Source: Azospirillum sp.
GTDB lineage: Bacteria > Pseudomonadota > Alphaproteobacteria > Azospirillales > Azospirillaceae
Length of the DNA: 64,000 nt
Assembly (NCBI GenBank): GCA_027486405.1
Contig: JAIXPD010000073.1
Span: 33,580 to 97,579 of the forward strand
Direction of reading: 5' to 3'
Within the stretch, counting starts at the first letter, position 1, and each line of letters opens with the position of its first letter. Below the pieces are notes generated by a model, which saw only the letters and a program-made list of their open reading frames with translations, had not been told where the DNA came from and did no database searches. The translations under genes and the position numbers were made by a program. Shown piece after piece: positions 1-56,550 of the stretch.

Positions 1-78
1 CCCGACTGGTCCCAACTCGCCCGCCTGGCCGACGCGGTGCACGCGGCCTTCGCAGCGTTGGAACGGCATCTGTCATGA
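1..78 (+). CDS. 3' tail of hybrid histidine kinase (mirror of 31727-31804), cut by window edge
   Basis: Reverse complement of the last 78 nt of the 31727-34723 gene; TGA at 76-78. Confidence 0.85.
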   Translation, partial: PDWSQLARLADAVHAAFAALERHLS

Positions 79-1457
79 CCGCACCCGATCTCAAGCAGCG
101 CCGCCCCAACCGCCGCGACGCGCTGGCCTTGCTGGGGGCCGCCACCGCCCTGCCCGCCACCGCGATGGCGCAGGACGCCCCCACACCCGCCCCGCCGCTG
201 CCCCGCCTGGGCGAGGAGCTGACTCCCTTCGGCGCGATCAAGGCGGGCAACCGCACCCGCGTCATCCCGCCCTGGACCGGCGGCCTCATCAAGCCGCCGC
301 GTGGCTACACCCCCGGCCGCCACAGCCCCGATCCCTTCATCGAGGATGGCCGTTGGATCACTGTCGGCCCGGCGGATGTGGAGCGGTACAAAATCCGGCT
401 GTCCGCCGGGCTGCAAGCCTTGCTGGCAAAGTACCCGACCACCTTCGAAATCCCGGTCTTTCCCTGCCGCCGCAGCGCCGCCGCCCCGCAGCGGGTCTAT
501 GACGCCAGCCTGGAGAACGCGACCCGCGCCAATCTGGGGGAAAACGGGCTGGTCCTGTCCGGCGTGCGGGTGGGGGTTCCCTTTCCCATCCCGGCCAACG
601 GCGTTCAGGCGATGTGGAACCACCTGCTGCGCTGGCGCGGCACGGCGATCAGCCACACCAGCCAAACCGTGCTGCCCGGTGGCGACGGCAAATTCGCCGA
701 CCGGCTCCATCAGGAGGATTTCTCCTTCCCCTACGCCGCCGGAGAGGCGGGCACACCGCTGCTCTACCGCCGCACCACCCTGAAGCCCGACGATCAGGCG
801 GGGACCACGCTGCTGACGCAAGCGACCCTCAACCCGATCCAGGCGGGCTTTCGCGCCTGGCTGCGCACCGGGGAACGGGGCCGTGTCGTCCCGGCACCGG
901 ATTTCCTGTACGACACCAACGACCCGGCGACCGATGGCATCGCCACCGCCGACATGTTCGACATGTTCAGCGGCCCGCTCGACCGCTTCGACTTCACGCT
1001 GATTTCCCGGCGGGAGATGTATGTTCCCTACAACGCCTACCGCCTGAACACCCCCAGCCTCGCCCCCCACGAGTTCCTGTGGTACGGCCACCCCAACCCG
1101 CAGTTCCTGCGTTATGAGATGCACCGGGTGTGGATCGTGGACGCCCGGCTGAAGCCGAACTTCAACCACAAACTGCCCGACCGCACCTATTACCTGGACG
1201 AGGATTCCTGGCAGATCGTGATGGCCGAGCATTACAACGGCAAGGGCGAGTTGCAGCGCTACGCCGAAGCCCACAACGTCGCCCACTGGCAGGTTCCGGC
1301 CTTCGTTCCAGCCATCGAGTTTGTCTATGACCTGACCGGCGACCGTTACGCCGCGCGGGGCATCGACAATCTGCAACGCCCGCCGGTCTTCGACAAACCA
1401 CTGAAACCCGAGGCCTTCACCCCGGACTCCCTGATCCGTCGCGGCCGCCGCGACTGA
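75..1457 (+). CDS. DUF1329-family exported protein (mirror copy)
   Basis: Identical to 30348-31730. Confidence 0.75.
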   Translation: MTAPDLKQRRPNRRDALALLGAATALPATAMAQDAPTPAPPLPRLGEELTPFGAIKAGNRTRVIPPWTGGLIKPPRGYTPGRHSPDPFIEDGRWITVGPADVERYKIRLSAGLQALLAKYPTTFEIPVFPCRRSAAAPQRVYDASLENATRANLGENGLVLSGVRVGVPFPIPANGVQAMWNHLLRWRGTAISHTSQTVLPGGDGKFADRLHQEDFSFPYAAGEAGTPLLYRRTTLKPDDQAGTTLLTQATLNPIQAGFRAWLRTGERGRVVPAPDFLYDTNDPATDGIATADMFDMFSGPLDRFDFTLISRREMYVPYNAYRLNTPSLAPHEFLWYGHPNPQFLRYEMHRVWIVDARLKPNFNHKLPDRTYYLDEDSWQIVMAEHYNGKGELQRYAEAHNVAHWQVPAFVPAIEFVYDLTGDRYAARGIDNLQRPPVFDKPLKPEAFTPDSLIRRGRRD

Positions 1458-1510
1458 AGCCGCCGTGACCAAGCGGCACTGGCCTGAACGCCGCCGTTCA
1501 GGCCGCACTC

Positions 1511-2335
1511 TCAGGCCGCCGTCTGCTCAAGCTTGCGCGCGCGGCGGTCCACCAGCCACCAAGCCCCGCGCGAGGCAACCGCGCTCAGGCGGGAATGCGG
1601 CTTCAACCCACAGGCCTTGAACACCATGGAGACCGCCCGGTCGATGTGCTTGGGCTGGTAACGGCCATAGGCGCGCCGCATGTAGGCGGCGTTGCAGCGG
1701 GCATGGTCATAGGCCGCGTCCGGGGCCTCGTTGGCGGCGAAATAGGCGTAGGCGAGTTCGTCGTCTTCGGATTCGCCGATGCGCGACAAGGCCACCTTCA
1801 GGCGCTGGAAGGTGCTCAACTCCTCCAAATCGCGGTATTTCTTGGAGTAGTCGTAGAAAATCTTGTAGTGGCGCAGCTCATCCGCCGCGATCCGGCGGCA
1901 AATCTCCCGCAACAGCGGTTCTTCGGTCGAATCGCCGATGGCCGTGTAGTAGGAGCTGGTTCCGGTCTCGACGATGCAGCGGGCGATCATCTCGCCGGTG
2001 CGCGAACCACGCACCGAGGCGTCCAGATCGATCGGCACGCGGTAGCCCGCGCGGAAGCGCGCCACCGCCCCATCAAAATCAAAGGACGGGTCGGCCAGCG
2101 TCGCCCAACGGCCCAGCGCCGCGCCATGCTGGACCTCCTCGTCGGCCCAACCGCGCGCGACGGCCTGGAAGTCAGGGTCGTCGCTGAAAACGTTGCAGAG
2201 ATAAGCGGTGTAGTCGTGGGCGTTGTACTCCACCAGGGCCGCCGCCTTGATGAGCGGAACCAGATCGGAGTCCACCTTGCTGGGATCAAACCCATCCCAG
2301 GGGAGATCCTCCAACCGCCAATGCCCGCGCGCCAT
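1511..2335 (-). CDS. Ferritin-like di-iron protein (mirror copy)
   Basis: Identical to 29470-30294. Confidence 0.75.
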   Translation of the reverse strand: MARGHWRLEDLPWDGFDPSKVDSDLVPLIKAAALVEYNAHDYTAYLCNVFSDDPDFQAVARGWADEEVQHGAALGRWATLADPSFDFDGAVARFRAGYRVPIDLDASVRGSRTGEMIARCIVETGTSSYYTAIGDSTEEPLLREICRRIAADELRHYKIFYDYSKKYRDLEELSTFQRLKVALSRIGESEDDELAYAYFAANEAPDAAYDHARCNAAYMRRAYGRYQPKHIDRAVSMVFKACGLKPHSRLSAVASRGAWWLVDRRARKLEQTAA

Positions 2336-2515
2336 GATCCGTTTCTCCTTCACCACCCGATTGGGGATGGCCTGATCGAACATTTGGGACCGGAACCACG
2401 CACGGCCTGATCCATCCGACCGTTGAATGTAATCACACTTTTTGGCGTTGCAACAGAAACGGGCGGCTCGGATGACCGAACCGCCCGTTCTTTTTCACAC
2501 GATCGCGACCGAGGG

Positions 2516-2935
2516 TCAGTGGGCGGCACCCGGCGTCGCCAGCGCGTCCAGCTTGGCCTGCGCGACGGCCAGCTTCGCTTCGACGGCGGCCTTGTCGGCG
2601 TCCGACGCGGCGTCGCTCAGATCCTCCGACAGGTCCTTGATCGCCTTTTCCACCGCCGCGCGGTCGATGGCCGACAGCGCTTGCGCCTCTTCGGCCAGAA
2701 CGGTGCAGCGGGTCCCGGTCACTTCGGCGAAGCCGCCCGCGACAAAGACGCGATCAACAACCCGGTCGCCCTCATACACCTCGATGACGCCCGGACGGAC
2801 CGTCGCGATCATCGGCGCATGGCCCGCCAGCACGCCGAAATCGCCTTCCGCCCCCGGCACCACGACCATGTCCACCGGAAGCGACTTCAGCAGCTTTTCC
2901 GGCGAGACCAGCTCGAATTCGACTTTGTCGGCCAT
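2516..2935 (-). CDS. atpC: F1 ATP synthase epsilon (mirror copy)
   Basis: Identical to 28870-29289. Confidence 0.93.
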   Translation of the reverse strand: MADKVEFELVSPEKLLKSLPVDMVVVPGAEGDFGVLAGHAPMIATVRPGVIEVYEGDRVVDRVFVAGGFAEVTGTRCTVLAEEAQALSAIDRAAVEKAIKDLSEDLSDAASDADKAAVEAKLAVAQAKLDALATPGAAH

Positions 2936-3046
2936 GGGTTCCCTGGTGCCTCTTTGTAAGCGCCCACCCCGTCCGAACGGGACAGGGTGGGCGAACCGTT
3001 TTCCAACCAGACCACGATCCGCCCCGGAACCGGGGCGGGATCAGGA

Positions 3047-4540
<1,494 letters not shown>

Positions 4541-4557
4541 CTACGCGGGATGCCGCC

Positions 4558-5442
4558 TTAGAGAGCCTCGGCACCGGAGATGATTTCGATCAGCTCCTTG
4601 GTGATGTAGGCTTGGCGCGTCCGGTTGTAGGTGATCGTCAGCTTGTTGATCATGTCGCCCGCGTTGCGCGTCGCGTTGTCCATCGCGGTCATCCGCGCGC
4701 CCTGTTCGGACGCGGCGCTTTCCAGAAGCGCACGGTAGACCTGGATCGACAGGTTGCGCGGCAGCAGTTCGGCAAGGATCTGCTCTTCGTCCGGCTCGAA
4801 CTCGTACACCGCCTTCACCTCGTCCGCCGGGGCGGCGTCCGTTTCCGGAACGGCGAAGGGGATGAGTTGCTGCACGGTGACGATCTGCGAGATCGCCGAC
4901 TTGAACTTGTTGAAGATGATCGTGCAGACGTCGAACTCGCCCGCGTCGAACATCGTCAGGACCTTCTGCGACACCATGTCGGCGTCGGCGAAGGACAGGC
5001 GGCGGCGACCCACATCCTCATACCCATGCACCATCAGCGCCCCGAATTCGCGGCGCAGCTGGTCGCGGGCCTTGCGGCCAACGGTGAGGAGCTTGACGGT
5101 CTTGCCTTCGCCCTGCAGGCGGGTGATCTGGCGCTTGGCCTCGCGGACGATGGAGCCGTTGAAGGCACCGCACAGACCACGATCCGAGCTGACGATGACG
5201 ACCAAGTGAACCGAATCGGAACCCGTTCCGGTCATCAGCTTCGGCCCGTTGCCGCTGCCCTGCACGTTGGCCGCCAGCGACGCGAGCATACGGCCCATGC
5301 GCTCGGCATAGGGGCCGCTGGCTTGCGCCTGTTCCTGCGCACGGCGCAGCTTGGAGGCCGCGACCATCTTCATGGCCGAGGTGATCTTCCGCGTCGATTG
5401 GACGCTCGAGATCCGGTTCTTTAGGTCCTTGAGGTTAGGCAT
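4558..5442 (-). CDS. atpG: F1 ATP synthase gamma (mirror copy)
   Basis: Identical to 26363-27247. Confidence 0.96.
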
Positions 5443-5527
5443 GCCGGCCCTTCATTCCGCTCGAGGTCGTTCCGTGTCCGTCAGGGATGACGGCTGAGGG
5501 GGCGGTTGCCCGCCCCCACACGGTCGG

Positions 5528-7056
<1,529 letters not shown>

Positions 7057-7057
<1 letters not shown>

Positions 7058-7626
7058 CAGACTGATCCCCCTGAGGCCTTCATGGCGAGTTGCAATTTGT
7101 TCAGCTTCGTGCGCACCGAGGTATCGACCATGCGCGAGCCGAACTTAACGATCATGCCGCCGATCAATTCGGGATCGACGGAGGTGTTGACCAAGACATT
7201 GGCCCCGATGGACGCCTTGAGCGCGTCGATCACGGCCTGACGCTGCGCGTCGCTCAACGGCTGGGCCGAGGTGACGGAGGCCGTCACTTCGCCACGGCGC
7301 TTCGCCAGCATGGCCAGGAAACCGTCGATCATGCCGCCGATCGCGAACAAACGCCGGTTCGTCGCGGCCAGCCCGACAAAGCGCTTGGTCAGATCGGACA
7401 CGCCCGCGCTGTCCAGCACGGCGGCCATCGCCCGCGCCTGATCGGCGCGGCTGATGACCGGGCTGCGGACGAGGCGACGCAGGTCAGCGCTCTCGGCCAG
7501 GATCTGCTTCAGCGTGGCCAGATCGCTCGCGACCGTGTCCAACGCCTGATTTTCGTCCGCAAGCTCGAACAGCGCGGTGGAGTAGCGCGCAGCGAGTTCG
7601 GAAACGCCTGTTCCTTCGGATGCCAC
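7057..7626 (-). CDS. atpH: F1 ATP synthase delta (mirror copy)
   Basis: Identical to 24179-24748. Confidence 0.93.
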
Positions 7627-8058
7627 CTGATCCCTCGAATTGAGTTCGGTAGACGGTGAATTCAGCGGCCTTAAAGGGCGTCAACCCGAGGCACAAACAC
7701 CCCAGCCGCGAAAGCGAGCGGTCCAATATCACAGCTTCCGCCACCACGCAACGGGGTCTGGACAATTTGGCTGCGGCGTTTTGAGCAACTGCGGAATCGC
7801 CGCTGCGGCTGGGGGAAATCGGCGGTCACTGGTCATACCGGACGCCGCGTCCGGCGCGGCCGGATCGGGCTTTTCCGACCGATTCCGGTGACTTGCCCGG
7901 CGCGCGCCGACCAGCGCGGCCCAGAGCGGACCGCCGCCGCCCCAACGGTCCTGCTGCGTCGCAACATGCCCCGCTCACGCGCCACGCGGCTTGCGGCGAT
8001 CCCGCACCCGCGAAACCGGGCCTCCCGGCCACGCTTTTGACAGCGAGTCGCACCGCCG

Positions 8059-8562
8059 TCAGCGGTACACCCCGACCGCCAGCGTGTGATCCTGGCCGTT
8101 CAGCACCAGACGCCGGGCGTGCAGCGTTTTGCGGGTGATCTGGCCCGACAGCGGGTCCAGCCATTGATAGGTGACGTCCGCCCGCCCCTGCTGCGCCACC
8201 CTGTCCAGCACCTCGCGGATGAAGGGCTTGCCGGTCACGTCGCGCAGGTCGGACAGGTTCGATCCGTTCAGGGACGGGGTCCAGCCATGGGCCAGCATCA
8301 CCCCGTTGCGGTCCAGCACCATCGGGTACAGATCCCGGTCGATGAAGGGGCCGGTCCGGCTGGCGAAGGCCCCGACCGCCGCCGCCACGCCGTCCTGCCG
8401 CAGAAAGGCTTCGGCCCGGTCCATCATCGCCAGCGCTTCCGCGTCGGTCCCACGGGTGCGCGCGGGCGCGCCCGCCGCCAGCGCGATGATGAGCAGCAGC
8501 AGCAGCACGGGCAGAACCGTCAGCAGCGTGTGGCGATGGAATTGGCGAGACAGCCAGTGCAT
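8059..8562 (-). CDS. Stand-alone Cache-domain protein (mirror copy)
   Basis: Identical to 23243-23746. Confidence 0.7.
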   Translation of the reverse strand: MHWLSRQFHRHTLLTVLPVLLLLLIIALAAGAPARTRGTDAEALAMMDRAEAFLRQDGVAAAVGAFASRTGPFIDRDLYPMVLDRNGVMLAHGWTPSLNGSNLSDLRDVTGKPFIREVLDRVAQQGRADVTYQWLDPLSGQITRKTLHARRLVLNGQDHTLAVGVYR

Positions 8563-8728
8563 CAGACGATCCGGAGATGAGCGCGCGCCCACGCGGGGCA
8601 GGCCTCGTGTGGCAAGCTTGTGTGGTAGTACCATGCTGGATCGGCGCGCAACGGATCAATCGTCACAGGTGCCATGCTGGCGCGAACCGGACAATTCGCC
8701 GCAGCCCTGTCGACCAATTGTTTCGCAT

Positions 8729-10969
8729 TTACAGAAAACTGTAGGGATCGACGTCGATCTGCACCCGGATGGCGGGCGGAATCTCCACCCGCTCCAACCA
8801 GGCGGCGATCAGCGGCTGCACCTGGGTCGCGCGCGGGGCCTTCAGCAGCAGGCGGCGGCGGTGCCGTCCGCGCAGCAACGCCAGCGGGGCCGGGGCCGGA
8901 CCCAGCACATGCACGGTGTCGTCGCGCGGGGCCGCCCGCCCCAGCGCCAGCGCCACCCGGTCCACCAGCGTCGGATCCTCGCCCGACACGATCAGCGCGG
9001 CCAGACGGCCAAAGGGCGGCATCCCGGCGTCCTGCCGCATCTCCGCCTCCAACTGATAGAAGCCGTCGCGGTCCCCAGCGGCCAGCGCCTGCATCACCGG
9101 GTGTTCGGGCATGAAGGTTTGCAGCATGACCGTGCCGGGCCGCTCGCCCCGTCCCGCTCGCCCCGCCACCTGATGCAGCAATTGATAGGTGCGTTCCGCC
9201 GCCCGCAGGTCGCCGCCGTTCAGCCCCAGATCGGCGTCCACCACCCCAACCAGGGTCAGCATGGGAAAATGGTGGCCCTTGGCCATCACCTGGGTGCCGA
9301 TGATGAGGTCCAGCTCATGGTCGCTGATCTTGCGCACCATCTCCTGAATGGCGCGCGGGCCGAACAGGGTGTCGGACGCCATGATGGCGGCGCGGGCGTC
9401 GGGGAACAGCTCGGCCACCTCCTCGGCGATGCGCTCCACGCCGGGGCCGCAGGCGGCCATGGTCCCTTCCTCCCCGCATTCCGGGCAGGCCGGGGGCAAG
9501 GGCTGTTGCAGGCCGCAATGGTGGCATTGGAGCTTGCGGGCCAGTCGGTGTTCGACCAGCCACGCCGTGCAGTTCGGGCATTGCATCCGGTGGCCGCAGG
9601 CCCGGCACAGGGTGAGCGGGGCGTAGCCGCGCCGGTTCAGGAACAGCATCGCCTGTTCCCCCGCCGCCAGCGTGTCGGCCAGAGCCTGGCGCAGGCTGGG
9701 GGCGAGCCAATGGCGGGCGGGCGGGCGGTCGCGCCGCAGATCGACCAACGCCACCTCCGGCAACTGCGCCCCGCCGTGGCGGGAGGGCAGCGCGATCCGG
9801 GTGTAGCGCCCGCTGTCGGCGTTCACCTTGGTTTCCAGCGACGGGGTGGCCGACACCAGCACGATGGGCAGCCCGCCCAGATGGGCGCGGGCAACCGCCA
9901 TGTCGCGGGCGTGGTAGATCGCCCCCTCCTCCTGCTTGTAGGCGGAATCATGCTCCTCATCGACGATGATGACGCCCAGATCGGGGTAAGGCAGGAACAG
10001 GGCGGACCGCGCGCCGACGACGACCGGGACCTCGCCCTTGGCCACCGCCCGCCAGGTGTCGCGGCGCTGCGACCCGGTCAATTCCGAATGCCATTCGGCC
10101 GGGGTCGCGCCGAAACGCCGGGCGAAACGGTCGAGCCACTGCGCCGACAGGGCGATTTCCGGCAGCAGGATCAAGGCCTGCTTGCCCTGCTCCAGCGCGG
10201 CGGCGATGGCCTCGTAATAAACCTCCGTCTTGCCCGATCCGGTCACGCCGTCCAGCAGCACGGTGGTGTAACCGCCCGCCCGCACCCGCTGGCGCAGATC
10301 GTCCGCCGCCGTCGCCTGATGGTCGGACAGGGTCGGGCCGGGCCGGGTCCAGTCGGGCCGCCCGCCGGGCGGCAACGGCGGCAACAGCAGCGGCTCCAGC
10401 AACCCGGCCTCGGCCAGCCCGCGCACCACGGTCACGCCGCAGCCCGCCTCCTCCGCCAGTTCGCCGGGCGTGCGCGGCGGGCCATCCTCCAGCAGCGCCA
10501 GCACGCGGCGTCGGGCGTCGGTCATCTTGAAGCCGGGCGGGGCCGGCGCGTCGGGCCGCCGCCGATAGGCCAGCGTTTCGCGCGGCGGTTCCAGCGCGGC
10601 GGGGACGCTCATCGCCATGCGCAGGACGAAGCCGGGCAAGGTCATGGTGTAGGCCGCCACCCATTCGACGAAGCGCCGGGCCACCACGGTCATCGGCGGC
10701 ACATCGAACCGGCGGACCACGGGCTTGAGCCGCCGCGCCTCCACCACCCCCGCGCCCGGCCCCCAGACCACGCCGATCACCCGGCGCGGCCCCAACGGCA
10801 CCTCGACAAAATCGCCGGGGTTGAGCGTCATCCCATCGGGCACGCCATAGTCGTAGGCCTCGCGCAATGGCAGCGGCAGCAGCACGGCGACGCGCGCCTC
10901 CCCCCCCAGAAGATCGCCTTGCGGATCCCCGGAATCGGACGGGCGGGAACTGGCGGAAGCCTCACGCAT
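8729..10969 (-). CDS. priA: Primosomal protein N' (mirror copy)
   Basis: Identical to 20836-23076. Confidence 0.95.
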
Positions 10970-11072
10970 GGGCTAAAGTGAGGCAACGTCCCAAGCGCGG
11001 CTCGGGATGGGCCATCGGCGCGCCGCCGGTGAGGCCGACCCGGTCATTTTCTGAAAGCATGGATCCTTCGTC

Positions 11073-11729
11073 ATGAAGTTCTTCGTTGACACCGCCGACA
11101 TCGCCGAAATCCGTGATCTGGCCGATTCCGGTCTGCTCGACGGTGTGACCACCAACCCCTCCCTGATCGCCAAGAGCGGCCGCCAGTTCCTCGATCTGGT
11201 CGCCGAAATCTGCGACGTGGTCAATGGCCCGGTCAGCGCCGAGGTGGCCTCGACCGATTTCGAGACCATGTTGCAGGAAGCGCAGAAGATCGCCAAGATC
11301 TCCCACCGCGTCGCGGTGAAGGTGCCGCTCACCCCCGCCGGCCTGAAGGTCTGCAAGATCATGTCGTCGCAGGGGACGATGGTCAACGTCACGCTGTGCT
11401 TCTCCCCGGCGCAAGCGATCCTGGCCGCCAAGGCCGGTGCCAGCTTCGTGTCGCCCTTCGTCGGCCGCCTGGACGACATCGGGCAGGATGGCATGGGCCT
11501 GATCACCGAGATCTGCGAGATCTACAAGAACTACGAGCATTTCAAGACCGAGGTGCTGGTCGCCTCCATCCGCAACCCGATCCACATCGTCAAGGCCGCC
11601 CGCCTGGGCGCGCATGTGGTCACGGCCCCGGCGTCGGTGCTCAAGCAGCTCTTCAACCACCCGCTGACCGACAAGGGCCTGGCCCAATTCGTCGCCGATT
11701 GGCAGAAGACCGGTCAATCCATCCTCTGA
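11073..11729 (+). CDS. tal: Transaldolase/FSA family (mirror copy)
   Basis: Identical to 20076-20732. Confidence 0.88.
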
Positions 11730-11750
11730 TCCGGTGACAGGACGACGCCC

Positions 11751-12464
11751 ATGGGCCGGGAAACGGGACACCCCCAACGACCGACGCACGCCGTCTCTTG
11801 CGACGACGTCCGCGCCTATCTGCGGGGGCACCCGGATTTCCTGGTCCAGAACGCCGATCTGGTTCCCCACCTGACCCCGCCCTCGATCGATCGCGGGCGG
11901 GGCGTGGTGGATTTGCAGATGTTCATGGTGGACCGCCTGCGCGGCGACCTGCGGCGGTTGAAGGACCAGAACCGCGAGTTGCTCGGGTCCAGCCGGGCCA
12001 ACCTGAACAGCCAGAACCGCATCCACGCCGCCGTGCTCTATCTGCTCGACGCCCAGAGCTTCGAAGAGTTGATCCACACCATCACCAACGATCTGGCGGT
12101 GCTGCTGGATCTGGACGTCGCCTGTCTGGTGGTGGAATCCAACGGCAGCGACATTCCCCACGTCCAGACCTCCGGCGTGCGGGTGGTGGTGGCGGGGACG
12201 GTGGCCGATCTGCTGGGGCACGCCGACGTCGCCCTGAACACCGACATCACCGGCGATCCGCTGCTCTACGGCCACGCCGCCGCGATGGTGCGGTCCGAAG
12301 CGCTGGTCCGCATCCAGGTGTCGAGCGAAACGCCCGACGGGCTGCTCGCCTTTGGCAGCCGCGATCCCAACACCTTTCAACAGGGGCAAGGCACCGATCT
12401 GGTCGGTTTCCTGGCCCGCGTGATCGAACGCGTCATCCGGGGCTGGCTGGAACTGCCCGCATGA
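11751..12464 (+). CDS. DUF484-family protein (mirror copy)
   Basis: Identical to 19341-20054. Confidence 0.8.
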   Translation: MGRETGHPQRPTHAVSCDDVRAYLRGHPDFLVQNADLVPHLTPPSIDRGRGVVDLQMFMVDRLRGDLRRLKDQNRELLGSSRANLNSQNRIHAAVLYLLDAQSFEELIHTITNDLAVLLDLDVACLVVESNGSDIPHVQTSGVRVVVAGTVADLLGHADVALNTDITGDPLLYGHAAAMVRSEALVRIQVSSETPDGLLAFGSRDPNTFQQGQGTDLVGFLARVIERVIRGWLELPA

Positions 12465-13411
12465 CTCAACCGGTTCTCGGTTTTTCCGCCCAGCCCGACG
12501 TTCAGGACGCGCTGGACCATTGGCGGCGTTGGATGACGAGCGAGCGGACGCTCTCCCCCCACACCCGCGCGGCCTACAGCGCCGATGTGGCGGAGTTCCT
12601 GGTCTTCCTCACCGGCTATCGCGGCGGGCAACCGCCCAATCTGAACGATCTGTCGGAATTGAAGGCGGCGGATTTCCGCGCCTGGATGTCGCGCCTGTCG
12701 ATGGATGGCCTGATCGGGGCGAGCCGGGCGCGCAAGCTGGCGGCGCTGCGCAACCTGTTCCGCTGGTTCGACCGCAGCGGGCGGCTGCACAACCCGGCCA
12801 TCGCCAGCCTTGCCACGCCAAAGGTCAAGCGCCCCCTGCCCCGCCCGCTGACGGAGATCGACACCGACCGCCTGCTGGAGGAAAGCGAACAGGAGCGCGA
12901 AGACGTCTGGGTCGGCAAGCGCGACCGCGCGCTCTACACCCTGCTCTATGGCTGCGGCCTGCGCATTTCCGAGGCGCTGGGGCTGGCGCGCAAGGAGGCA
13001 CCGCTGTCCGACACCCTGCGCGTCACCGGCAAGGGCCGCAAGGAGCGGATGATCCCAGTGCTGCCCGCCGTCAGCGACGCGGTGCGCGCCTATCTCGACG
13101 CCTGCCCCTTCACCCTGCCGCCGGATGGGCCGCTGTTCGTCGGCGCGCGCGGCGGCCGGTTGCAGGCCAGCGTCGCCCAATTGCAGATGCGCAAGCTGCG
13201 CGCCCTGATCGGCCTGCCCGACAGCGCCACCCCGCACGCCCTGCGCCACAGCTTCGCCACCCATCTGCTGGCCGACGGCGGCGATCTGCGCGCGATTCAG
13301 GATTTGCTCGGCCACGCCTCGCTGTCCACCACGGCGCGCTACACCGATCTGGAAAACGAACAGTTGATGAGCGTCTACCGGTCCGCCCACCCACGGGCGC
13401 GCAAGGGCTGA
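12461..13411 (+). CDS. xerC: Tyrosine recombinase XerC (mirror copy)
   Basis: Identical to 18394-19344. Confidence 0.88.
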   Translation: MTQPVLGFSAQPDVQDALDHWRRWMTSERTLSPHTRAAYSADVAEFLVFLTGYRGGQPPNLNDLSELKAADFRAWMSRLSMDGLIGASRARKLAALRNLFRWFDRSGRLHNPAIASLATPKVKRPLPRPLTEIDTDRLLEESEQEREDVWVGKRDRALYTLLYGCGLRISEALGLARKEAPLSDTLRVTGKGRKERMIPVLPAVSDAVRAYLDACPFTLPPDGPLFVGARGGRLQASVAQLQMRKLRALIGLPDSATPHALRHSFATHLLADGGDLRAIQDLLGHASLSTTARYTDLENEQLMSVYRSAHPRARKG

Positions 13412-13591
13412 CCACGCCATTCCCTATAGGTTATGGCGTTTTCCGCAAGGCTGATCCCCACCCAGCGCACGCGCCGTTGACGCGCCATTCACCAACGCGA
13501 CCATCGCCATTCACCCGGACAGCGGACTGTTCCCATCGCCAACAATAACGAGCGGCGCAGCAACCGCGCCGCAGGGCATGGAGATCACCAC

Positions 13592-14662: not shown

Positions 14663-14803
14663 TTGGTTTGCCGACGGATCGGTTGATCCTCGGATAATGC
14701 CGGGCGAGCGCGGCGGGGAACCACCGGCTCGCCCGGTGTTGTTTTGGGTGTGCGAGGGTGGGGTTTGACACAGATGAACACAGATAGACACAGATGGATT
14801 TAG

Positions 14804-24178: not shown

Positions 24179-24747
24179 GTGGCATCCGAAGGAACAGGCG
24201 TTTCCGAACTCGCTGCGCGCTACTCCACCGCGCTGTTCGAGCTTGCGGACGAAAATCAGGCGTTGGACACGGTCGCGAGCGATCTGGCCACGCTGAAGCA
24301 GATCCTGGCCGAGAGCGCTGACCTGCGTCGCCTCGTCCGCAGCCCGGTCATCAGCCGCGCCGATCAGGCGCGGGCGATGGCCGCCGTGCTGGACAGCGCG
24401 GGCGTGTCCGATCTGACCAAGCGCTTTGTCGGGCTGGCCGCGACGAACCGGCGTTTGTTCGCGATCGGCGGCATGATCGACGGTTTCCTGGCCATGCTGG
24501 CGAAGCGCCGTGGCGAAGTGACGGCCTCCGTCACCTCGGCCCAGCCGTTGAGCGACGCGCAGCGTCAGGCCGTGATCGACGCGCTCAAGGCGTCCATCGG
24601 GGCCAATGTCTTGGTCAACACCTCCGTCGATCCCGAATTGATCGGCGGCATGATCGTTAAGTTCGGCTCGCGCATGGTCGATACCTCGGTGCGCACGAAG
24701 CTGAACAAATTGCAACTCGCCATGAAGGCCTCAGGGGGATCAGTCTG

Positions 24748-24748
<1 letters not shown>
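24179..24748 (+). CDS. atpH: F1 ATP synthase delta
   Basis: [22 protein letters not shown]; GTG start; first gene of the F1 operon. Confidence 0.95.
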
Positions 24749-26277
<1,529 letters not shown>

Positions 26278-26362
26278 CCGACCGTGTGGGGGCGGGCAAC
26301 CGCCCCCTCAGCCGTCATCCCTGACGGACACGGAACGACCTCGAGCGGAATGAAGGGCCGGC

Positions 26363-27247
26363 ATGCCTAACCTCAAGGACCTAAAGAACCGGATCTCGAG
26401 CGTCCAATCGACGCGGAAGATCACCTCGGCCATGAAGATGGTCGCGGCCTCCAAGCTGCGCCGTGCGCAGGAACAGGCGCAAGCCAGCGGCCCCTATGCC
26501 GAGCGCATGGGCCGTATGCTCGCGTCGCTGGCGGCCAACGTGCAGGGCAGCGGCAACGGGCCGAAGCTGATGACCGGAACGGGTTCCGATTCGGTTCACT
26601 TGGTCGTCATCGTCAGCTCGGATCGTGGTCTGTGCGGTGCCTTCAACGGCTCCATCGTCCGCGAGGCCAAGCGCCAGATCACCCGCCTGCAGGGCGAAGG
26701 CAAGACCGTCAAGCTCCTCACCGTTGGCCGCAAGGCCCGCGACCAGCTGCGCCGCGAATTCGGGGCGCTGATGGTGCATGGGTATGAGGATGTGGGTCGC
26801 CGCCGCCTGTCCTTCGCCGACGCCGACATGGTGTCGCAGAAGGTCCTGACGATGTTCGACGCGGGCGAGTTCGACGTCTGCACGATCATCTTCAACAAGT
26901 TCAAGTCGGCGATCTCGCAGATCGTCACCGTGCAGCAACTCATCCCCTTCGCCGTTCCGGAAACGGACGCCGCCCCGGCGGACGAGGTGAAGGCGGTGTA
27001 CGAGTTCGAGCCGGACGAAGAGCAGATCCTTGCCGAACTGCTGCCGCGCAACCTGTCGATCCAGGTCTACCGTGCGCTTCTGGAAAGCGCCGCGTCCGAA
27101 CAGGGCGCGCGGATGACCGCGATGGACAACGCGACGCGCAACGCGGGCGACATGATCAACAAGCTGACGATCACCTACAACCGGACGCGCCAAGCCTACA
27201 TCACCAAGGAGCTGATCGAAATCATCTCCGGTGCCGAGGCTCTCTAA
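26363..27247 (+). CDS. atpG: F1 ATP synthase gamma
   Basis: [29 protein letters not shown]. Confidence 0.98.
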
Positions 27248-27264
27248 GGCGGCATCCCGCGTAG

Positions 27265-28758
<1,494 letters not shown>

Positions 28759-28869
28759 TCCTGATCCCGCCCCGGTTCCGGGGCGGATCGTGGTCTGGTT
28801 GGAAAACGGTTCGCCCACCCTGTCCCGTTCGGACGGGGTGGGCGCTTACAAAGAGGCACCAGGGAACCC

Positions 28870-29289
28870 ATGGCCGACAAAGTCGAATTCGAGCTGGTCT
28901 CGCCGGAAAAGCTGCTGAAGTCGCTTCCGGTGGACATGGTCGTGGTGCCGGGGGCGGAAGGCGATTTCGGCGTGCTGGCGGGCCATGCGCCGATGATCGC
29001 GACGGTCCGTCCGGGCGTCATCGAGGTGTATGAGGGCGACCGGGTTGTTGATCGCGTCTTTGTCGCGGGCGGCTTCGCCGAAGTGACCGGGACCCGCTGC
29101 ACCGTTCTGGCCGAAGAGGCGCAAGCGCTGTCGGCCATCGACCGCGCGGCGGTGGAAAAGGCGATCAAGGACCTGTCGGAGGATCTGAGCGACGCCGCGT
29201 CGGACGCCGACAAGGCCGCCGTCGAAGCGAAGCTGGCCGTCGCGCAGGCCAAGCTGGACGCGCTGGCGACGCCGGGTGCCGCCCACTGA
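28870..29289 (+). CDS. atpC: F1 ATP synthase epsilon
   Basis: FELVSPE, GDFGVLAGHAP, FVAGGFAEV. Confidence 0.96.
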   Translation: MADKVEFELVSPEKLLKSLPVDMVVVPGAEGDFGVLAGHAPMIATVRPGVIEVYEGDRVVDRVFVAGGFAEVTGTRCTVLAEEAQALSAIDRAAVEKAIKDLSEDLSDAASDADKAAVEAKLAVAQAKLDALATPGAAH

Positions 29290-29469
29290 CCCTCGGTCGC
29301 GATCGTGTGAAAAAGAACGGGCGGTTCGGTCATCCGAGCCGCCCGTTTCTGTTGCAACGCCAAAAAGTGTGATTACATTCAACGGTCGGATGGATCAGGC
29401 CGTGCGTGGTTCCGGTCCCAAATGTTCGATCAGGCCATCCCCAATCGGGTGGTGAAGGAGAAACGGATC

Positions 29470-30294: not shown

Positions 30295-30347
30295 GAGTGC
30301 GGCCTGAACGGCGGCGTTCAGGCCAGTGCCGCTTGGTCACGGCGGCT

Positions 30348-31730
30348 TCAGTCGCGGCGGCCGCGACGGATCAGGGAGTCCGGGGTGAAGGCCTCGGGTT
30401 TCAGTGGTTTGTCGAAGACCGGCGGGCGTTGCAGATTGTCGATGCCCCGCGCGGCGTAACGGTCGCCGGTCAGGTCATAGACAAACTCGATGGCTGGAAC
30501 GAAGGCCGGAACCTGCCAGTGGGCGACGTTGTGGGCTTCGGCGTAGCGCTGCAACTCGCCCTTGCCGTTGTAATGCTCGGCCATCACGATCTGCCAGGAA
30601 TCCTCGTCCAGGTAATAGGTGCGGTCGGGCAGTTTGTGGTTGAAGTTCGGCTTCAGCCGGGCGTCCACGATCCACACCCGGTGCATCTCATAACGCAGGA
30701 ACTGCGGGTTGGGGTGGCCGTACCACAGGAACTCGTGGGGGGCGAGGCTGGGGGTGTTCAGGCGGTAGGCGTTGTAGGGAACATACATCTCCCGCCGGGA
30801 AATCAGCGTGAAGTCGAAGCGGTCGAGCGGGCCGCTGAACATGTCGAACATGTCGGCGGTGGCGATGCCATCGGTCGCCGGGTCGTTGGTGTCGTACAGG
30901 AAATCCGGTGCCGGGACGACACGGCCCCGTTCCCCGGTGCGCAGCCAGGCGCGAAAGCCCGCCTGGATCGGGTTGAGGGTCGCTTGCGTCAGCAGCGTGG
31001 TCCCCGCCTGATCGTCGGGCTTCAGGGTGGTGCGGCGGTAGAGCAGCGGTGTGCCCGCCTCTCCGGCGGCGTAGGGGAAGGAGAAATCCTCCTGATGGAG
31101 CCGGTCGGCGAATTTGCCGTCGCCACCGGGCAGCACGGTTTGGCTGGTGTGGCTGATCGCCGTGCCGCGCCAGCGCAGCAGGTGGTTCCACATCGCCTGA
31201 ACGCCGTTGGCCGGGATGGGAAAGGGAACCCCCACCCGCACGCCGGACAGGACCAGCCCGTTTTCCCCCAGATTGGCGCGGGTCGCGTTCTCCAGGCTGG
31301 CGTCATAGACCCGCTGCGGGGCGGCGGCGCTGCGGCGGCAGGGAAAGACCGGGATTTCGAAGGTGGTCGGGTACTTTGCCAGCAAGGCTTGCAGCCCGGC
31401 GGACAGCCGGATTTTGTACCGCTCCACATCCGCCGGGCCGACAGTGATCCAACGGCCATCCTCGATGAAGGGATCGGGGCTGTGGCGGCCGGGGGTGTAG
31501 CCACGCGGCGGCTTGATGAGGCCGCCGGTCCAGGGCGGGATGACGCGGGTGCGGTTGCCCGCCTTGATCGCGCCGAAGGGAGTCAGCTCCTCGCCCAGGC
31601 GGGGCAGCGGCGGGGCGGGTGTGGGGGCGTCCTGCGCCATCGCGGTGGCGGGCAGGGCGGTGGCGGCCCCCAGCAAGGCCAGCGCGTCGCGGCGGTTGGG
31701 GCGGCGCTGCTTGAGATCGGGTGCGGTCAT
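30348..31730 (-). CDS. DUF1329-family exported protein, Tat-like signal
   Basis: NRRDAL twin-arginine-type leader; IPPWTGG, MYVPYN, HRVWIV, YYLDEDSWQ motifs recalled from DUF1329 proteins. Confidence 0.75.
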   Translation of the reverse strand: MTAPDLKQRRPNRRDALALLGAATALPATAMAQDAPTPAPPLPRLGEELTPFGAIKAGNRTRVIPPWTGGLIKPPRGYTPGRHSPDPFIEDGRWITVGPADVERYKIRLSAGLQALLAKYPTTFEIPVFPCRRSAAAPQRVYDASLENATRANLGENGLVLSGVRVGVPFPIPANGVQAMWNHLLRWRGTAISHTSQTVLPGGDGKFADRLHQEDFSFPYAAGEAGTPLLYRRTTLKPDDQAGTTLLTQATLNPIQAGFRAWLRTGERGRVVPAPDFLYDTNDPATDGIATADMFDMFSGPLDRFDFTLISRREMYVPYNAYRLNTPSLAPHEFLWYGHPNPQFLRYEMHRVWIVDARLKPNFNHKLPDRTYYLDEDSWQIVMAEHYNGKGELQRYAEAHNVAHWQVPAFVPAIEFVYDLTGDRYAARGIDNLQRPPVFDKPLKPEAFTPDSLIRRGRRD

Positions 31731-34723
31731 GACAGATGCCGTTCCAACGCTGCGAAGGCCGCGTGCACCGCGTCGGCCAGGCGGGCGAGTTGGGACCAGT
31801 CGGGTTCACCGGCGGCGGCCTGCTCCAGCGCCAACGCCGCGTTGGCCAGGGGCTTGGCCCCGGCGTTGCGGCTGGAGCCTTTCAGATTGTGGGCGGCGGC
31901 GCGCACCCCGGCCAGATGGCGGCCAAGCAGGGCGGAATCCAGACCGACCAGAATCTCCCGGCTGCTGCTGCGGAAATCGCCCAGCAGTTCGGTCACAAGA
32001 CCATCGTCGCCGCCGCACAGCGCGCGCAGGGCGGTCAAGTCGATGGGCGGGTCGCCCTCGGTTTCGCGAGAAACGGGTGTACTGGGAACGGTTTCGCTGG
32101 GAACGGCGGGCGGCGGTGCGGGCGTGGCCGTCACGGCGTCACCGGACGCAACCGGGGCCGACGGCATCCAGCGGGCAAGGGTGAGGGCCAGTTGCGACAG
32201 GTCGAGCGGCTTGCTCAACACGGCGTCCATCCCGGTGGCGTGGTAACTGGCGACCTCGCCGGGCGCGGCGTTGGCGGTGATGGCGATGATGGGCAGACGC
32301 GGCGCACCGACGGGGCCGTCGCCCGCCTGTTCGGCGGCGCGGATGCGGCGGGTCAACTCAAAGCCATCGACCTCCGGCATCTGCACATCGGTCAGCAACA
32401 GGGCGTAACGACGGTCGCCACGCCACGCGGCCAGCGCCTCCGCCCCGCCCGCCGTCATCTCGGCGGCGTAGCCCAGGGCGCGCAGCTGCATGCCCAGAAC
32501 CTTGCGGTTCACCGGGTTGTCTTCCGCCACCAGGATCAGGCGGCCTTCGGCGTGCGCCTGTTCGGGATCCAGGTCGGCCGGGGCGGTTTCGGTGGGCGGA
32601 AGGGGCGCGGTCACGCCGGGGGCGGGTGGTTCGCCCAACGGGCCGCGCCCGGCGGCGGCGGCCACGGCGCGCAGGAACGGCGCGCGGCGCACCGGGCGGC
32701 CCAACGGCACCGTGTTGCCGCTGGGGCGGTCGCCACCGGCCCCCTGCATCAGAAGAACGATGGGCGGGCAGGCCTCGCCGCTGCGCCGGCCCAACTCCTC
32801 CGGCGCGCAGGCGGCGGCGGGAACCCGCAGCGCCTCATCCACCGCGACGACGCTGGCCGGGCACCCGGCCTCCCGCGCGATCCGGGCCTGGGTTGCCAGT
32901 TGCTGGGCGTCTCCGGCGGGCAACACCCGCGCGCCCGCCAGTTCCAGATAGCGGGACAGGAATTCGCGTTCGGTGGCGTCGGGAACGCCCAACAGCACCG
33001 TCAGGCCCGACAGGTCCAAATCCTCCGGCCCATCCGGCGGGCTGGCGGCCGGGGCGGTCTCGCCCACCGCAAGCCGGGCCTCCGCCCGATCCAGCGTGAG
33101 GGTCAACCAGAAGGTGGACCCCTCGCCGGGGTTGCTCTCCACCCCGATTTCACCGTTCATCAAGGTGGCCAGACGGCGGCTGATCGACAGCCCAAGACCG
33201 GTGCCGCCGAAGCGCCGGGCGGTGGAGCTTTCGGCCTGCGTGAAGGGTTGGAACAGACGCCGCCGGGCGGCGTCGGCGATGCCGATGCCGGTGTCGATCA
33301 CCTCGATCCGCAGGGCGGCGCTGTCGGGGCTGAGGCCGTCCAACCCCACCCGCAGCACGATCCGCCCGCGTTCGGTGAACTTGATGGCGTTGCCGCCCAG
33401 ATTGAACAGGATTTGCCGCAGCCGCACCGGATCGCCCAACAGGGCGGGCGGAATCGCCGGGTCGATGTAGGTCAGCAGGGCCAGCCCCTTGGCGCGGGCC
33501 GAGGGGGCCAGCGTTTCCGCCACCCCTTCGACCAGGGCGGGGATGGAGACGGCGACCCGCTCGACGTCCATCTTCCCGGCTTCGATCTTCGAAAAATCCA
33601 GAATGTCGTCGATGATGCGCAACAGCGAGGTGGCCGATTCCCGCATGGTCGCCACGGTGTCGATCTGGTGGGTGTCCAGCTCCGTCCGTTCCAGCAGGCC
33701 CAACATGCCCAGCACCCCGTTCATCGGCGTGCGGATCTCGTGGCTCATGGTGGCGAGAAAGGCGGATTTCGCTTTGGTCGCCTGTTCGGCCTGCTCCTTG
33801 GCGTTTTCCATCTGGCGTTCGGCCAGCTTGCGGCGGGTGATGTCGTAGATCCAGGACAGGAACACCGGCTGCCCGTTGACCTGGGTCGGATCGACCGTCA
33901 TCAGCGCCCAGAAACTGGAGCCGTCGGCGCGCAGCAGCTTCACTTCGGCGTCGCGGATCTGGCGGCGGTAGAACAGCCACCGCTGTTCGTCCTGGCGATC
34001 GTCCATCGGCGCGAACAGCTCGCCGATGCTGCTGCCCAGCAGCCGGTCTTTGGAGACGCCGAGCAGCGTGGTCAGCCGGTGGTTGGTCAGAACGATGATG
34101 CCGCTCTCGTCATAGGCGCAGACCCCGATGGGGCTGGCCTCCAACACGGCGTTGATCTGCTCCTGGCTTTCGCGCAGCTCGCGGGTGCGTTCGGCCACGC
34201 GGGTTTCGATCGACTGGATCTGATCGAAGGCGCGCAAGGCGGCGATGACGGCGGTGAACAGGCTTTCCGCCGACAGGTCGGCCTTGGGCTTGTAATCGTT
34301 GATGTCGTAATCGACGATCACGTCCCGCTGCGGGGCCTGCCCCGGCTGGCCGGTGCGCAGGATGATGCGCACGTCGCGGTTGCCAAGCTCGTCCCGGATC
34401 CAGCGCACCAGCCGCAGGCCGGAATCGTCCTGTTCCATCACCACATCCAACAGGATCACGGCCACGTCGGGCCGGTGTTCCAGGATCATGCGCGCGGCGG
34501 CGGCGGTGTGGGCGCTGATGAGGTCCAACGGGCGTTTCTGGAACGTCACGTCGGCCAACAGCAGGTTGGTCATCAGATGGACGTCGGCCTCGTCATCGAC
34601 GACCAGCACGGTCCAGGGCGGTGGCCCCGCGTCCTGGGTGTCAACGGGGCCGGAATCCTCCTCGTCGGCGAAGAGGATGTCGTCGTCGTCGAACATGCGG
34701 TCGGCGAGAGCGCCCATGTTCAT
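31727..34723 (-). CDS. Hybrid sensor kinase (REC-PAS-HisKA-HATPase-pseudoREC-REC-Hpt)
   Basis: H-box MSHEIRTPMNG, N/G boxes, GGTGLGL, REC domains (VVDDE, VAEDN..DVQMP), Hpt AHNLKGSS. Confidence 0.93.
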   Translation of the reverse strand: MNMGALADRMFDDDDILFADEEDSGPVDTQDAGPPPWTVLVVDDEADVHLMTNLLLADVTFQKRPLDLISAHTAAAARMILEHRPDVAVILLDVVMEQDDSGLRLVRWIRDELGNRDVRIILRTGQPGQAPQRDVIVDYDINDYKPKADLSAESLFTAVIAALRAFDQIQSIETRVAERTRELRESQEQINAVLEASPIGVCAYDESGIIVLTNHRLTTLLGVSKDRLLGSSIGELFAPMDDRQDEQRWLFYRRQIRDAEVKLLRADGSSFWALMTVDPTQVNGQPVFLSWIYDITRRKLAERQMENAKEQAEQATKAKSAFLATMSHEIRTPMNGVLGMLGLLERTELDTHQIDTVATMRESATSLLRIIDDILDFSKIEAGKMDVERVAVSIPALVEGVAETLAPSARAKGLALLTYIDPAIPPALLGDPVRLRQILFNLGGNAIKFTERGRIVLRVGLDGLSPDSAALRIEVIDTGIGIADAARRRLFQPFTQAESSTARRFGGTGLGLSISRRLATLMNGEIGVESNPGEGSTFWLTLTLDRAEARLAVGETAPAASPPDGPEDLDLSGLTVLLGVPDATEREFLSRYLELAGARVLPAGDAQQLATQARIAREAGCPASVVAVDEALRVPAAACAPEELGRRSGEACPPIVLLMQGAGGDRPSGNTVPLGRPVRRAPFLRAVAAAAGRGPLGEPPAPGVTAPLPPTETAPADLDPEQAHAEGRLILVAEDNPVNRKVLGMQLRALGYAAEMTAGGAEALAAWRGDRRYALLLTDVQMPEVDGFELTRRIRAAEQAGDGPVGAPRLPIIAITANAAPGEVASYHATGMDAVLSKPLDLSQLALTLARWMPSAPVASGDAVTATPAPPPAVPSETVPSTPVSRETEGDPPIDLTALRALCGGDDGLVTELLGDFRSSSREILVGLDSALLGRHLAGVRAAAHNLKGSSRNAGAKPLANAALALEQAAAGEPDWSQLARLADAVHAAFAALERHLS

Positions 34724-56253: not shown

Positions 56254-56338
56254 GCGGGCGTGGCGAAATCGGTAGACGCTAGGGACTTAAAATCCCTCGC
56301 CGTTAGGCATGCGGGTTCGAGTCCCGCCGCCCGCACCA
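56254..56338 (+). tRNA. tRNA-Leu (anticodon TAA)
   Basis: Acceptor GCGGGCG/CGCCCGC-A-CCA, D arm TGGCGAAATCGGTAGACGC, anticodon arm AGGGA-CTTAAAA-TCCCT, long variable arm, GGTTCGAGTCC. Confidence 0.96.
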
Positions 56339-56477: not shown

Positions 56478-56510
56478 GTGAAGAGAACCATGGTCTGACG
56501 TAGTGGAAAC

Positions 56511-56550
56511 GGCGGGATTTGGTGGGATTATCGGGGATTTGTCGGGACGG
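56511..56550 (+). repeat. Four 10-bp-phased NNNGGGAYKD repeats near the prophage end
   Basis: GGCGGGATTT GGTGGGATTA TCGGGGATTT GTCGGGACGG. Confidence 0.7.

What the first reader, a model, noticed from the sequence alone, without database searches (positions are those of the whole stretch)
1..31804. 15.9-kb-arm perfect palindrome with no spacer
Seen: the first half of the window mirrors itself about 15902/15903. All ORFs are identical and there is no loop. Only the right arm is seen to run on into unique DNA, without a break (kinase 31727-34723). Established: long spacer-less palindromes extrude cruciforms, are cut by SbcCD and are generally not stably kept in bacterial chromosomes, while fold-back chimeras are a known long-read and assembly artefact. 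Inference: the most parsimonious reading is an artefact nucleated at a natural hairpin. A hairpin telomere or a real inverted duplication cannot be excluded from sequence alone.
Basis: partly seen in the sequence, partly recalled or inferred. Interest (0 to 1): 0.85.

Follow-up and report, generated by a model that had tools for sequence, protein, structure and literature searches.

The report
Whole-contig fold-back assembly artefact
The "palindrome" is almost certainly a short-read assembler walking a single-copy chromosome stretch twice after turning round at a natural 36-bp palindrome inside a multi-copy insertion sequence, so it is a quality-control problem and not biology.

Summary
The mirror symmetry is real in the sequence (0 mismatches), but it is larger than reported. 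Window base 1 is not the contig start. The whole 98,962-bp contig equals its own reverse complement, with arms of 49,481 bp. The "unique DNA" right of 31,804 is therefore mirrored too, outside the window.

The centre sits on a natural 18+18-bp palindrome, 57 nt inside the left end of an IS110-family element with about 9 copies. Five other contigs in the same assembly carry the non-mirrored IS left end, and three of them read through the palindrome.

One of these, C91, ends 55 nt into the arm. It carries lpd, which lies just upstream of xerC-DUF484-tal-priA in all 8 same-genus relatives. The true order is therefore lpd-IS-asparaginase-xerC…priA-atp.

At word sizes of 37 or less, the fold-back contains no word that the true sequence lacks. 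The assembly looks like a multi-k de Bruijn assembly with a final k of 119.

The branch at the outer end (C20/C41) is explained by a second Mu-like prophage on C40. No protelomerase is present, and SbcD is.

Verdict: artefact (about 0.92) and not a real feature.

The parts
1..15902 (.). Mirror copy: the artefactual second traversal of the arm. It is the reverse complement of 15903-31804 and continues for 33,579 more bases beyond window base 1, to the contig end.
   Evidence: 0 mismatches. Whole contig C9 equals its reverse complement. Window is C9:1384-65383 minus strand.
15885..15920 (.). Natural 18+18-bp perfect palindrome GCCGTTTGGGGTGGGTGG|CCACCCACCCCAAACGGC. This is the turning point of the fold-back.
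   Evidence: The same 36-mer occurs with a non-mirrored left side in C78, C79 and C91. It is self-complementary up to 36 nt and not at 38.
15903..17004 (+). IS110-family insertion sequence, about 9 copies collapsed into this one. Its genuine first 57 nt (CT-TGTCTTATAGAATCC...) are missing here and replaced by the mirror.
   Evidence: Eight other contigs end in its last 56-118 nt. Six contigs carry its left end after the flank ...CACGGCG-CT: five at a contig end, and C35 as an internal fragment.
16040..16993 (+). IS110-family transposase (DEDD_Tnp_IS110 + Transposase_20 domains).
   Evidence: Pfam E 7e-22 and 1e-20.
17143..18207 (-). Periplasmic-type L-asparaginase. It lies on a secondary replicon in relatives and here forms part of a roughly 2.9-kb insert with the IS.
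   Evidence: Pfam. Relatives' positions. Absent from the lpd-xerC gap in G003.
18394..23076 (.). Core chromosomal block: xerC (about 18394-19335, -), DUF484 (19341-20054, -), transaldolase (20076-20732, -), priA (20836-23076, +).
   Evidence: Pfam. XerC motifs in the translation and Phage_integrase domains on the Logan gene call. priA is single-copy in all 13 relatives.
24179..29289 (+). F1 ATP synthase operon atpH-A-G-D-C.
   Evidence: Pfam.
31727..34723 (-). Hybrid histidine kinase.
   Evidence: Pfam. Whole-contig symmetry.
56479..64000 (+). Early region of a Mu-like transposable prophage (repressor, MuA 59162-61327, MuB 61405-62169). It runs to the contig end at window-equivalent 65383. The last roughly 300 nt are shared with a second prophage on C40.
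Evidence: PHROGs. C40 merges into the arm, and the arm branches to C20/C41.

Best explanation
The palindrome is not in the organism's chromosome. Contig C9 is a 'palindromic unitig': one 49,481-bp single-copy chromosomal path written out twice, forward and reverse-complemented.

What is shown: the real chromosome reads lpd - short repeats - IS110 element (about 1,159 bp) - asparaginase - xerC - DUF484 - tal - priA - atpHAGDC ... Mu-like prophage. An 18+18-bp perfect palindrome lies 57 nt inside the IS left end.

In a de Bruijn graph with words of 37 nt or less, both strands share the nodes inside that palindrome. The walk 'reverse-complement of the IS body -> palindrome -> IS body' is then as valid as the true walk 'IS left end -> palindrome -> IS body'.

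What is inferred: the IS is present in about 9 copies, and its short left end runs straight into other dispersed repeats. The true branch was therefore pruned or left as dead ends (C78, C79, C91). The fold-back made at a small k was carried as a pseudo-read into larger k, up to a final k of about 119. SPAdes- and MEGAHIT-type assemblers print a path through such a self-mirror edge in full. Chimeric fold-back reads made at the palindrome during library preparation could have contributed instead, or as well. Either way the result is an artefact.
For: (1) C9 (98,962 bp) equals its reverse complement exactly, and it is the only one of 96 contigs to do so. Both 'ends' are therefore the same sequence, and arm identity carries no information.
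(2) The centre is the centre of a natural 36-bp palindrome. C78, C79 and C91 read ...AAGAATGG-GCCGTTTGGGGTGGGTGG|CCACCC..., whereas C9 reads the mirror ...ATCCCCCG-CCGTTTGG....
(3) That site lies in an IS110-family repeat. Eight other contigs end in its right end and five in its left end, all as dead ends with overlaps shorter than 119 nt.
(4) The first 55 nt of C91 are identical to the first 55 nt of the arm, and C91 carries lpd at 460-1857 pointing into the IS. In G003 the lpd orthologue lies 64 bp from the xerC-DUF484 orthologue. In all 8 same-genus relatives lpd is 2.6-6.2 kb upstream of priA on the same strand.
(5) priA is single-copy in all 13 relatives.
(6) At word sizes of 37 or less, the fold-back has no word absent from the true sequence. 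Fold-back-specific words appear only from 38 nt.
(7) The assembly bears the signature of a de Bruijn unitig assembly. The modal and maximal exact end overlap is 119 nt, contigs break at repeats, and the smallest contig is 2,641 bp.
(8) Independent k=31 Logan contigs from two runs break exactly at the palindrome border, 12 nt left of the centre. This is as expected if the true left branch is present.
(9) Single-copy natural palindromes of 42-44 bp (C81, C37) are traversed normally. The combination of palindrome and repeat is what matters.
(10) Whole-contig palindromes are a documented assembler error (PMC9455707; bioRxiv 10.1101/2023.06.06.543983). SPAdes and MEGAHIT output palindromic unitigs in full (PMC9528984).
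(11) The genome encodes SbcD and no protelomerase.
Against: It is therefore untested whether the arm has single-copy depth and whether any real molecules span the fold-back. A genuine spacer-less palindrome would be printed in the same form by the same assemblers, so the contig shape alone does not discriminate. The 83 fold-back-specific 120-mers had to come from somewhere, and their origin (earlier-k contigs or chimeric reads) is inferred. The assembler's identity is also inferred. The adjacency of C91 to this particular IS copy rests on synteny, and the IS plus asparagine insert is itself a local rearrangement relative to G003.
Confidence: 0.92

Rival explanations
1. Real inverted duplication (giant palindrome). 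Template switching or hairpin-primed synthesis at the IS's 36-bp palindrome duplicated 49.5 kb of chromosome head-to-head, in the whole population or in a sub-population.
For: Short inverted repeats are known to nucleate large palindromes (established knowledge from E. coli sbcCD mutants, yeast and Tetrahymena rDNA). The assembler would output a real palindrome in the same form (PMC9528984). The arm's outer end does have two continuations, C20 and C41.
Against: The C20/C41 branch is accounted for by a second related prophage on C40. The last 79 nt of C40 merge into the arm about 220 nt before its end, giving an ordinary 2-in/2-out repeat. A duplicated arm would give 3-in/2-out. C91 (lpd plus IS left end) would be left without its syntenic partner. 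priA and atp are single-copy in all relatives. SbcD is encoded, and long spacer-less palindromes are cleaved by SbcCD. The turning point lies in a collapsed multi-copy repeat, exactly where graph ambiguity is expected.
Confidence: 0.05
2. Hairpin telomere. The centre is the covalently closed end of a linear replicon, read through by the sequencer or assembler.
For: A read-through hairpin end gives a spacer-less perfect palindrome. The genus has multi-replicon genomes.
Against: There is no ResT/TelK-type protelomerase in the assembly, though the assembly is only 93.7% complete. The 'end' lies 57 nt inside an IS, and the other copies of that IS continue normally past the same palindrome. The arm is core chromosome (lpd-xerC-priA-atp) and is syntenic with the interior of relatives' main chromosomes. 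The other end of the arm runs into a prophage and further contigs.
Confidence: 0.01

Closest known systems
Palindromic contigs in short-read assemblies (81 such contigs in SPAdes M. bovis assemblies, PMC9455707; single-cell genome assemblies, bioRxiv 10.1101/2023.06.06.543983)
   Same: The entire contig is one sequence followed by its exact reverse complement. Genes are duplicated as mirror images, and the authors judged this to be assembly error.
   Different: Those papers do not describe the nucleating site. Here it is pinned to a natural 36-bp palindrome inside a multi-copy IS110 element, and the true neighbour contig is identified.
Palindromic maximal unitigs / self-mirror edges in doubled de Bruijn graphs (Rahman & Medvedev 2022, PMC9528984)
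   Same: It explains why SPAdes- and MEGAHIT-type assemblers print w + revcomp(w) when a path meets a lone inverted loop.
   Different: That paper treats true palindromes in the genome. Here the genome's palindrome is only 36 bp, and the 99-kb extension is false. It presumably arose at small k and was carried upward.
Fold-back chimeras in long-read data (missing SMRTbell adapter, nanopore template-complement read-through)
   Same: Both give a spacer-less inverted duplication with identical arms.
   Different: This assembly has the hallmarks of a short-read de Bruijn assembly: 119-nt exact overlaps and breaks at every IS and REP-like repeat. Long-read chimeras need no natural palindrome.
Hairpin telomeres of linear replicons (N15, Borrelia, Agrobacterium linear chromosome)
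   Same: The replicated junction is a perfect palindrome.
   Different: There is no protelomerase. The site is internal to an IS and to a conserved chromosomal gene order.

Membership tests
Whole-contig palindrome (assembler fold-back artefact) | The contig equals its own reverse complement from end to end. | tested here: met
   C9, 98,962 bp, 0 mismatches.
Whole-contig palindrome (assembler fold-back artefact) | The turning point is a natural palindrome short enough to be ambiguous at the assembler's small k values. | tested here: met
   The natural palindrome is 36 bp. There are no fold-back-specific words at 37 nt or less.
Whole-contig palindrome (assembler fold-back artefact) | The true, non-mirrored continuation exists in the same data. 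| tested here: met
   C78, C79 and C91 read through the palindrome into the IS left end and their flanks. C91 is the syntenic neighbour.
Whole-contig palindrome (assembler fold-back artefact) | Single-copy read depth on the arm, and no (or only chimeric) reads spanning the mirrored junction. | not testable with these tools
Hairpin-telomere linear replicon | A telomere resolvase (ResT/TelK/TelN) is encoded. | tested here: not met
   PF16684 has no match in the own genome. The assembly is 93.7% complete.
Hairpin-telomere linear replicon | The sequence ends at the turn, with no continuation beyond it. | tested here: not met
   Other IS copies continue 57 nt further and into flanks. lpd lies beyond by synteny.
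Real inverted duplication | Two distinct outer junctions attributable to the two arm copies. | tested here: not met
   Two continuations exist (C20, C41), but they are matched by two incoming paths (the arm and C40). This is an ordinary shared repeat between two Mu-like prophages.
Real inverted duplication | Doubled copy number of the arm. | not testable with these tools
Contig names and coverage values are not available.
IS110 family insertion sequence (the element at the centre) | A DEDD (RuvC-like) transposase N-domain plus a Transposase_20 C-domain, multiple copies, and no long terminal inverted repeats. | tested here: met
   Pfam PF01548 + PF02371. About 9 right ends, plus 5 left ends at contig termini and 1 internal left-end fragment. 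The ends are TGTCTTATAG... and ...CGGATACT, each next to CT.

The most novel reading that the evidence does not exclude
The 36-bp hairpin in the IS110 left end really did nucleate a head-to-head 49.5-kb chromosomal duplication (covering priA and the atp operon). This would be present in at least part of the sampled population, which would make an IS110 element's structured leader a natural hotspot for giant palindrome formation in a bacterium that encodes SbcD.
Probability: 0.04. Interest if true: 0.6.

Novelty: not a real feature. Interest (0 to 1): 0.04.

Why it matters
The value is mainly quality control. The deposited assembly carries 49,481 bp of phantom duplicate, about 0.9% of its length. 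That duplicate includes second copies of priA, atpHAGDC, xerC and a prophage front end. It inflates paralogue counts, contamination estimates and pangenome 'accessory' genes.

Half of C9 should be removed, and C91 should be placed to its left across the IS.

The result also matters for the neighbouring first-stage notes on this IS110 element and its bridge RNA. The element's genuine left end is absent from the window, so any reading of the sequence left of 15885 in the window is reading a mirror image. The genuine left end (CACGGCG-CT-TGTCTTATAG..., 57 nt left of the axis) is present on C22, C65, C78, C79 and C91.

More generally, a simple test (contig == reverse complement of contig) would flag this class of finding before any reader time is spent on it.

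Tried and rejected
(1) Read evidence: the look-up of sequencing runs and read laying (with run ids that the look-up of encoding contigs had shown) were both closed. No depth or junction reads were obtained.

(2) N15-like linear phage-plasmid idea, prompted by the roughly 49.5-kb arm. Rejected: the arm is core chromosome and there is no protelomerase.

(3) Asparaginase as a synteny anchor. This failed because in relatives the gene sits on a secondary replicon in a different context. I switched to priA/xerC and lpd, which worked.

(4) Exact-pattern scan of genome contigs for the palindrome plus IS start: no other genome. A DNA search of 60 genus members for the IS found only one 77% partial hit. 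No outside copy was available for comparison.

(5) Independent Logan contigs for the transposase, asparaginase and lpd. All are short and break at the palindrome or at the nearby CACAGATG-type repeats, so none bridges the IS.

(6) Rfam scan of the IS: no family matched.

(7) I considered the C20/C41 branch as the two outer junctions of a real duplication. I rejected this after finding C40 merging into the arm.

I used the genome search with a locus reference instead.

Full report
OBSERVATION. The window is perfectly self-complementary about 15902/15903: 15,902 base pairs checked, 0 mismatches, no spacer. The size and the boundary were misread, however. The window is C9:1384-65383 (minus strand) of a 96-contig, 5.49-Mb, 67% GC draft. 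Contig C9 is 98,962 bp, which is 2 x 49,481, and it equals its own reverse complement base for base. It is the only contig that does. Window base 1 is therefore not a contig end. The left arm runs on for another 33,579 bases outside the window. The 'unique DNA' right of 31,804, including the histidine kinase, is mirrored as well. Both ends of the contig are the same sequence.

WHAT THE ARM IS. Reading from the centre outwards, the arm contains the following:
- An IS110-family element at 15903-17004, with its transposase at 16040-16993.
- L-asparaginase, xerC, DUF484, transaldolase, priA and the F1 ATP-synthase operon atpHAGDC.
- Sensor kinases and a GGDEF-EAL protein.
- tRNA-Leu at 56254-56338.
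- From about 56.5 kb, the early region of a Mu-like transposable prophage (repressor, MuA, MuB).
This is ordinary core chromosome and not a plasmid or phage replicon. That removed my first idea of a roughly 49.5-kb N15-like hairpin-ended prophage.

THE CENTRE. The first 1,102 nt of the arm are a collapsed multi-copy repeat. Eight other contigs end in the last 56-118 nt of this IS. Five contigs (C22, C65, C78, C79, C91) end in its left end, and C35 holds an internal left-end fragment.

C78, C79 and C91 read straight through the symmetry axis. They show what the genome really contains there...CACGGCG-CT-TGTCTTATAGAATCCTCGGCTCATTCTGCAAGAATGG-GCCGTTTGGGGTGGGTGG|CCACCCACCCCAAACGGC-GGGGGATAGATCG... 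This is a natural 18+18-bp perfect palindrome lying 57 nt inside the IS left end. Beyond those 18 nt the natural copies do not mirror, and only C9 does.

THE TRUE LEFT NEIGHBOUR. The first 55 nt of C91 are identical to the first 55 nt of the arm. C91 carries lpd (460-1857), oriented so that it reads into the IS. In relative G003 the lpd orthologue ends 64 bp from the orthologue of window 18392-20865 (xerC-DUF484-tal), which is followed by priA. In all eight same-genus relatives examined, lpd lies 2.6-6.2 kb upstream of priA on the same strand and contig. The join C91(reverse)-IS-arm would give a spacing of about 5.3 kb, which is within that range. priA is single-copy in all 13 relatives searched. 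The real order is therefore lpd - IS110 - asparaginase - xerC - DUF484 - tal - priA - atp. The IS and asparaginase form a roughly 2.9-kb local insert. In relatives the asparaginase sits on a secondary replicon.

WHY AN ASSEMBLER WOULD DO THIS. The assembly looks like a multi-k de Bruijn unitig assembly. The commonest and longest exact overlap between contig ends is 119 nt, contigs break at every IS and REP-like repeat, and the smallest contig is 2,641 bp. Completeness is 93.7%, and the size is below the genus range of 6.2-9.7 Mb, which suggests a binned metagenome.

I computed that at any word length of 37 or less, the fold-back contains no word that is absent from the true sequence. Fold-back-specific words appear only from 38 nt, and there are 83 of them at 120 nt. 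At the small k values that multi-k assemblers start from, the walk revcomp(IS) -> palindrome -> IS is thus a legitimate path.

The competing true branch is a 39-nt stub that runs straight into dispersed repeats: a roughly 40-nt element, and an 88-nt element with more than 150 copies. My inference is that this branch was pruned, that the fold-back contig was passed as a pseudo-read to higher k, and that it survived to the end. The true flanks were left as dead ends with overlaps shorter than k, which is exactly what C78, C79 and C91 and the eight right-end contigs look like.

Rahman & Medvedev (PMC9528984) show that SPAdes and MEGAHIT print palindromic unitigs in full. Whole-contig palindromes have been reported and dismissed as assembly error in SPAdes M. 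bovis assemblies (81 contigs; PMC9455707) and in single-cell assemblies (bioRxiv 10.1101/2023.06.06.543983). Longer natural palindromes in single-copy DNA (44 bp in C81, 42 bp in C37) are traversed normally in this assembly, so it is the combination of palindrome and repeat that matters. Independent k=31 Logan contigs of two runs start exactly at the first word that leaves the palindrome, 12 nt left of the axis. That is the expected unitig break if the true left branch is present in the reads.

THE ONE OBSERVATION THAT COULD HAVE FAVOURED A REAL DUPLICATION. The arm's outer end overlaps by 119 nt with two different 20-kb contigs, C20 and C41, as the two outer junctions of a real inverted duplication would. 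However, a third contig, C40, carries a related Mu-like prophage. Its sequence becomes identical to the arm about 300 nt before the arm's end: the last 79 nt of C40 are an exact match, and it ends as a dead end. The node is therefore an ordinary two-in (arm, C40), two-out (C20, C41) repeat shared by two related prophages. A duplicated arm would make it three-in, two-out.

RIVALS. A hairpin telomere is excluded for practical purposes. There is no ResT/TelK-type resolvase. The 'end' is internal to an IS whose other copies continue past it. The locus is syntenic with the interior of relatives' chromosomes. A real giant palindrome cannot be formally excluded without reads, but it needs several extra events. 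It would leave C91 without its partner, and it would have to persist in a genome that encodes SbcD. I give it about 5%.

LIMITS. The two decisive measurements, depth on the arm and reads across positions -19 to +19, were therefore not made. The identity of the assembler and the step at which the false junction arose are inferences. No other public genome carries this IS for comparison.

VERDICT. The symmetry is real in the file but not in the cell. It is a known kind of assembly artefact, and here it is traced to its nucleating site and its true neighbour. Interest is very low, except as a quality-control flag and as a warning for the neighbouring IS110/bridge-RNA notes: the sequence left of about 15885 in the window is a mirror image and not the IS's real left end.

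Noticed in passing
window 15903-17004; true left end on G000 C79:6840-6896, C78:6451-6507, C91:56-112 (reverse): The IS110-family element has about 9 copies, and the full natural length is about 1,159 bp. Every left flank is a REP-like hairpin ...GAGCGCCGTG(N18-19)CACGGCG followed by CT, so the element appears to target one arm of a dispersed hairpin repeat. Four right flanks (C14, C53, C78, C90) share a further 63-nt element, while five others (C9, C33, C43, C80, C88) do not. The 36-bp palindrome lies between the left end and the putative bridge-RNA leader. There was no Rfam match.
   Followed up: partly
G000 C35:118-188: A solo fragment of the IS left end is embedded inside a 160-kb contig. 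It breaks off 7 nt past the palindrome centre (…GGTGGGTGGCCACCCA|GGGGAATCGC). This may be a deletion or rearrangement scar at the same hairpin.
   Followed up: no
genome-wide; e.g. G000 C79:6713-6800: A roughly 88-bp dispersed repeat has well over 150 copies at 80-94% identity, and a roughly 40-bp element has dozens of copies. Many contig ends fall in them. A further short motif, CATCTGTGTTCATC(T/G)GTGTC, flanks the IS/asparaginase insert in inverted orientation (window 17008-17040 and C91 about 395-440).
   Followed up: no
window 17143-18207: The L-asparaginase is 90-91% identical to orthologues that sit on secondary replicons in four relatives. Here it is inserted together with the IS between lpd and xerC on the main-chromosome synteny block. 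This looks like an IS-associated relocation.
   Followed up: partly
window 56479-64000 and on to the contig end; G000 C40:48210-49751, C20, C41: At least two related Mu-like transposable prophages are present. Their early regions are 91-96% identical, then there is a short identical stretch, then mosaic 20-kb continuations (C20 versus C41, similar again over their last 324 nt). Whether these are two prophages in one genome or strain variants in a mixed sample is open.
   Followed up: partly
G000 C5 (2,641 bp) and C6 (11,500 bp): Both contigs have exact 119-nt terminal inverted repeats (equal to k). Both ends of C5 link to the same neighbours (C17L, C88L). These are segments bracketed by inverted copies of a collapsed repeat. 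That makes them ordinary graph loops and not fold-backs.
   Followed up: no
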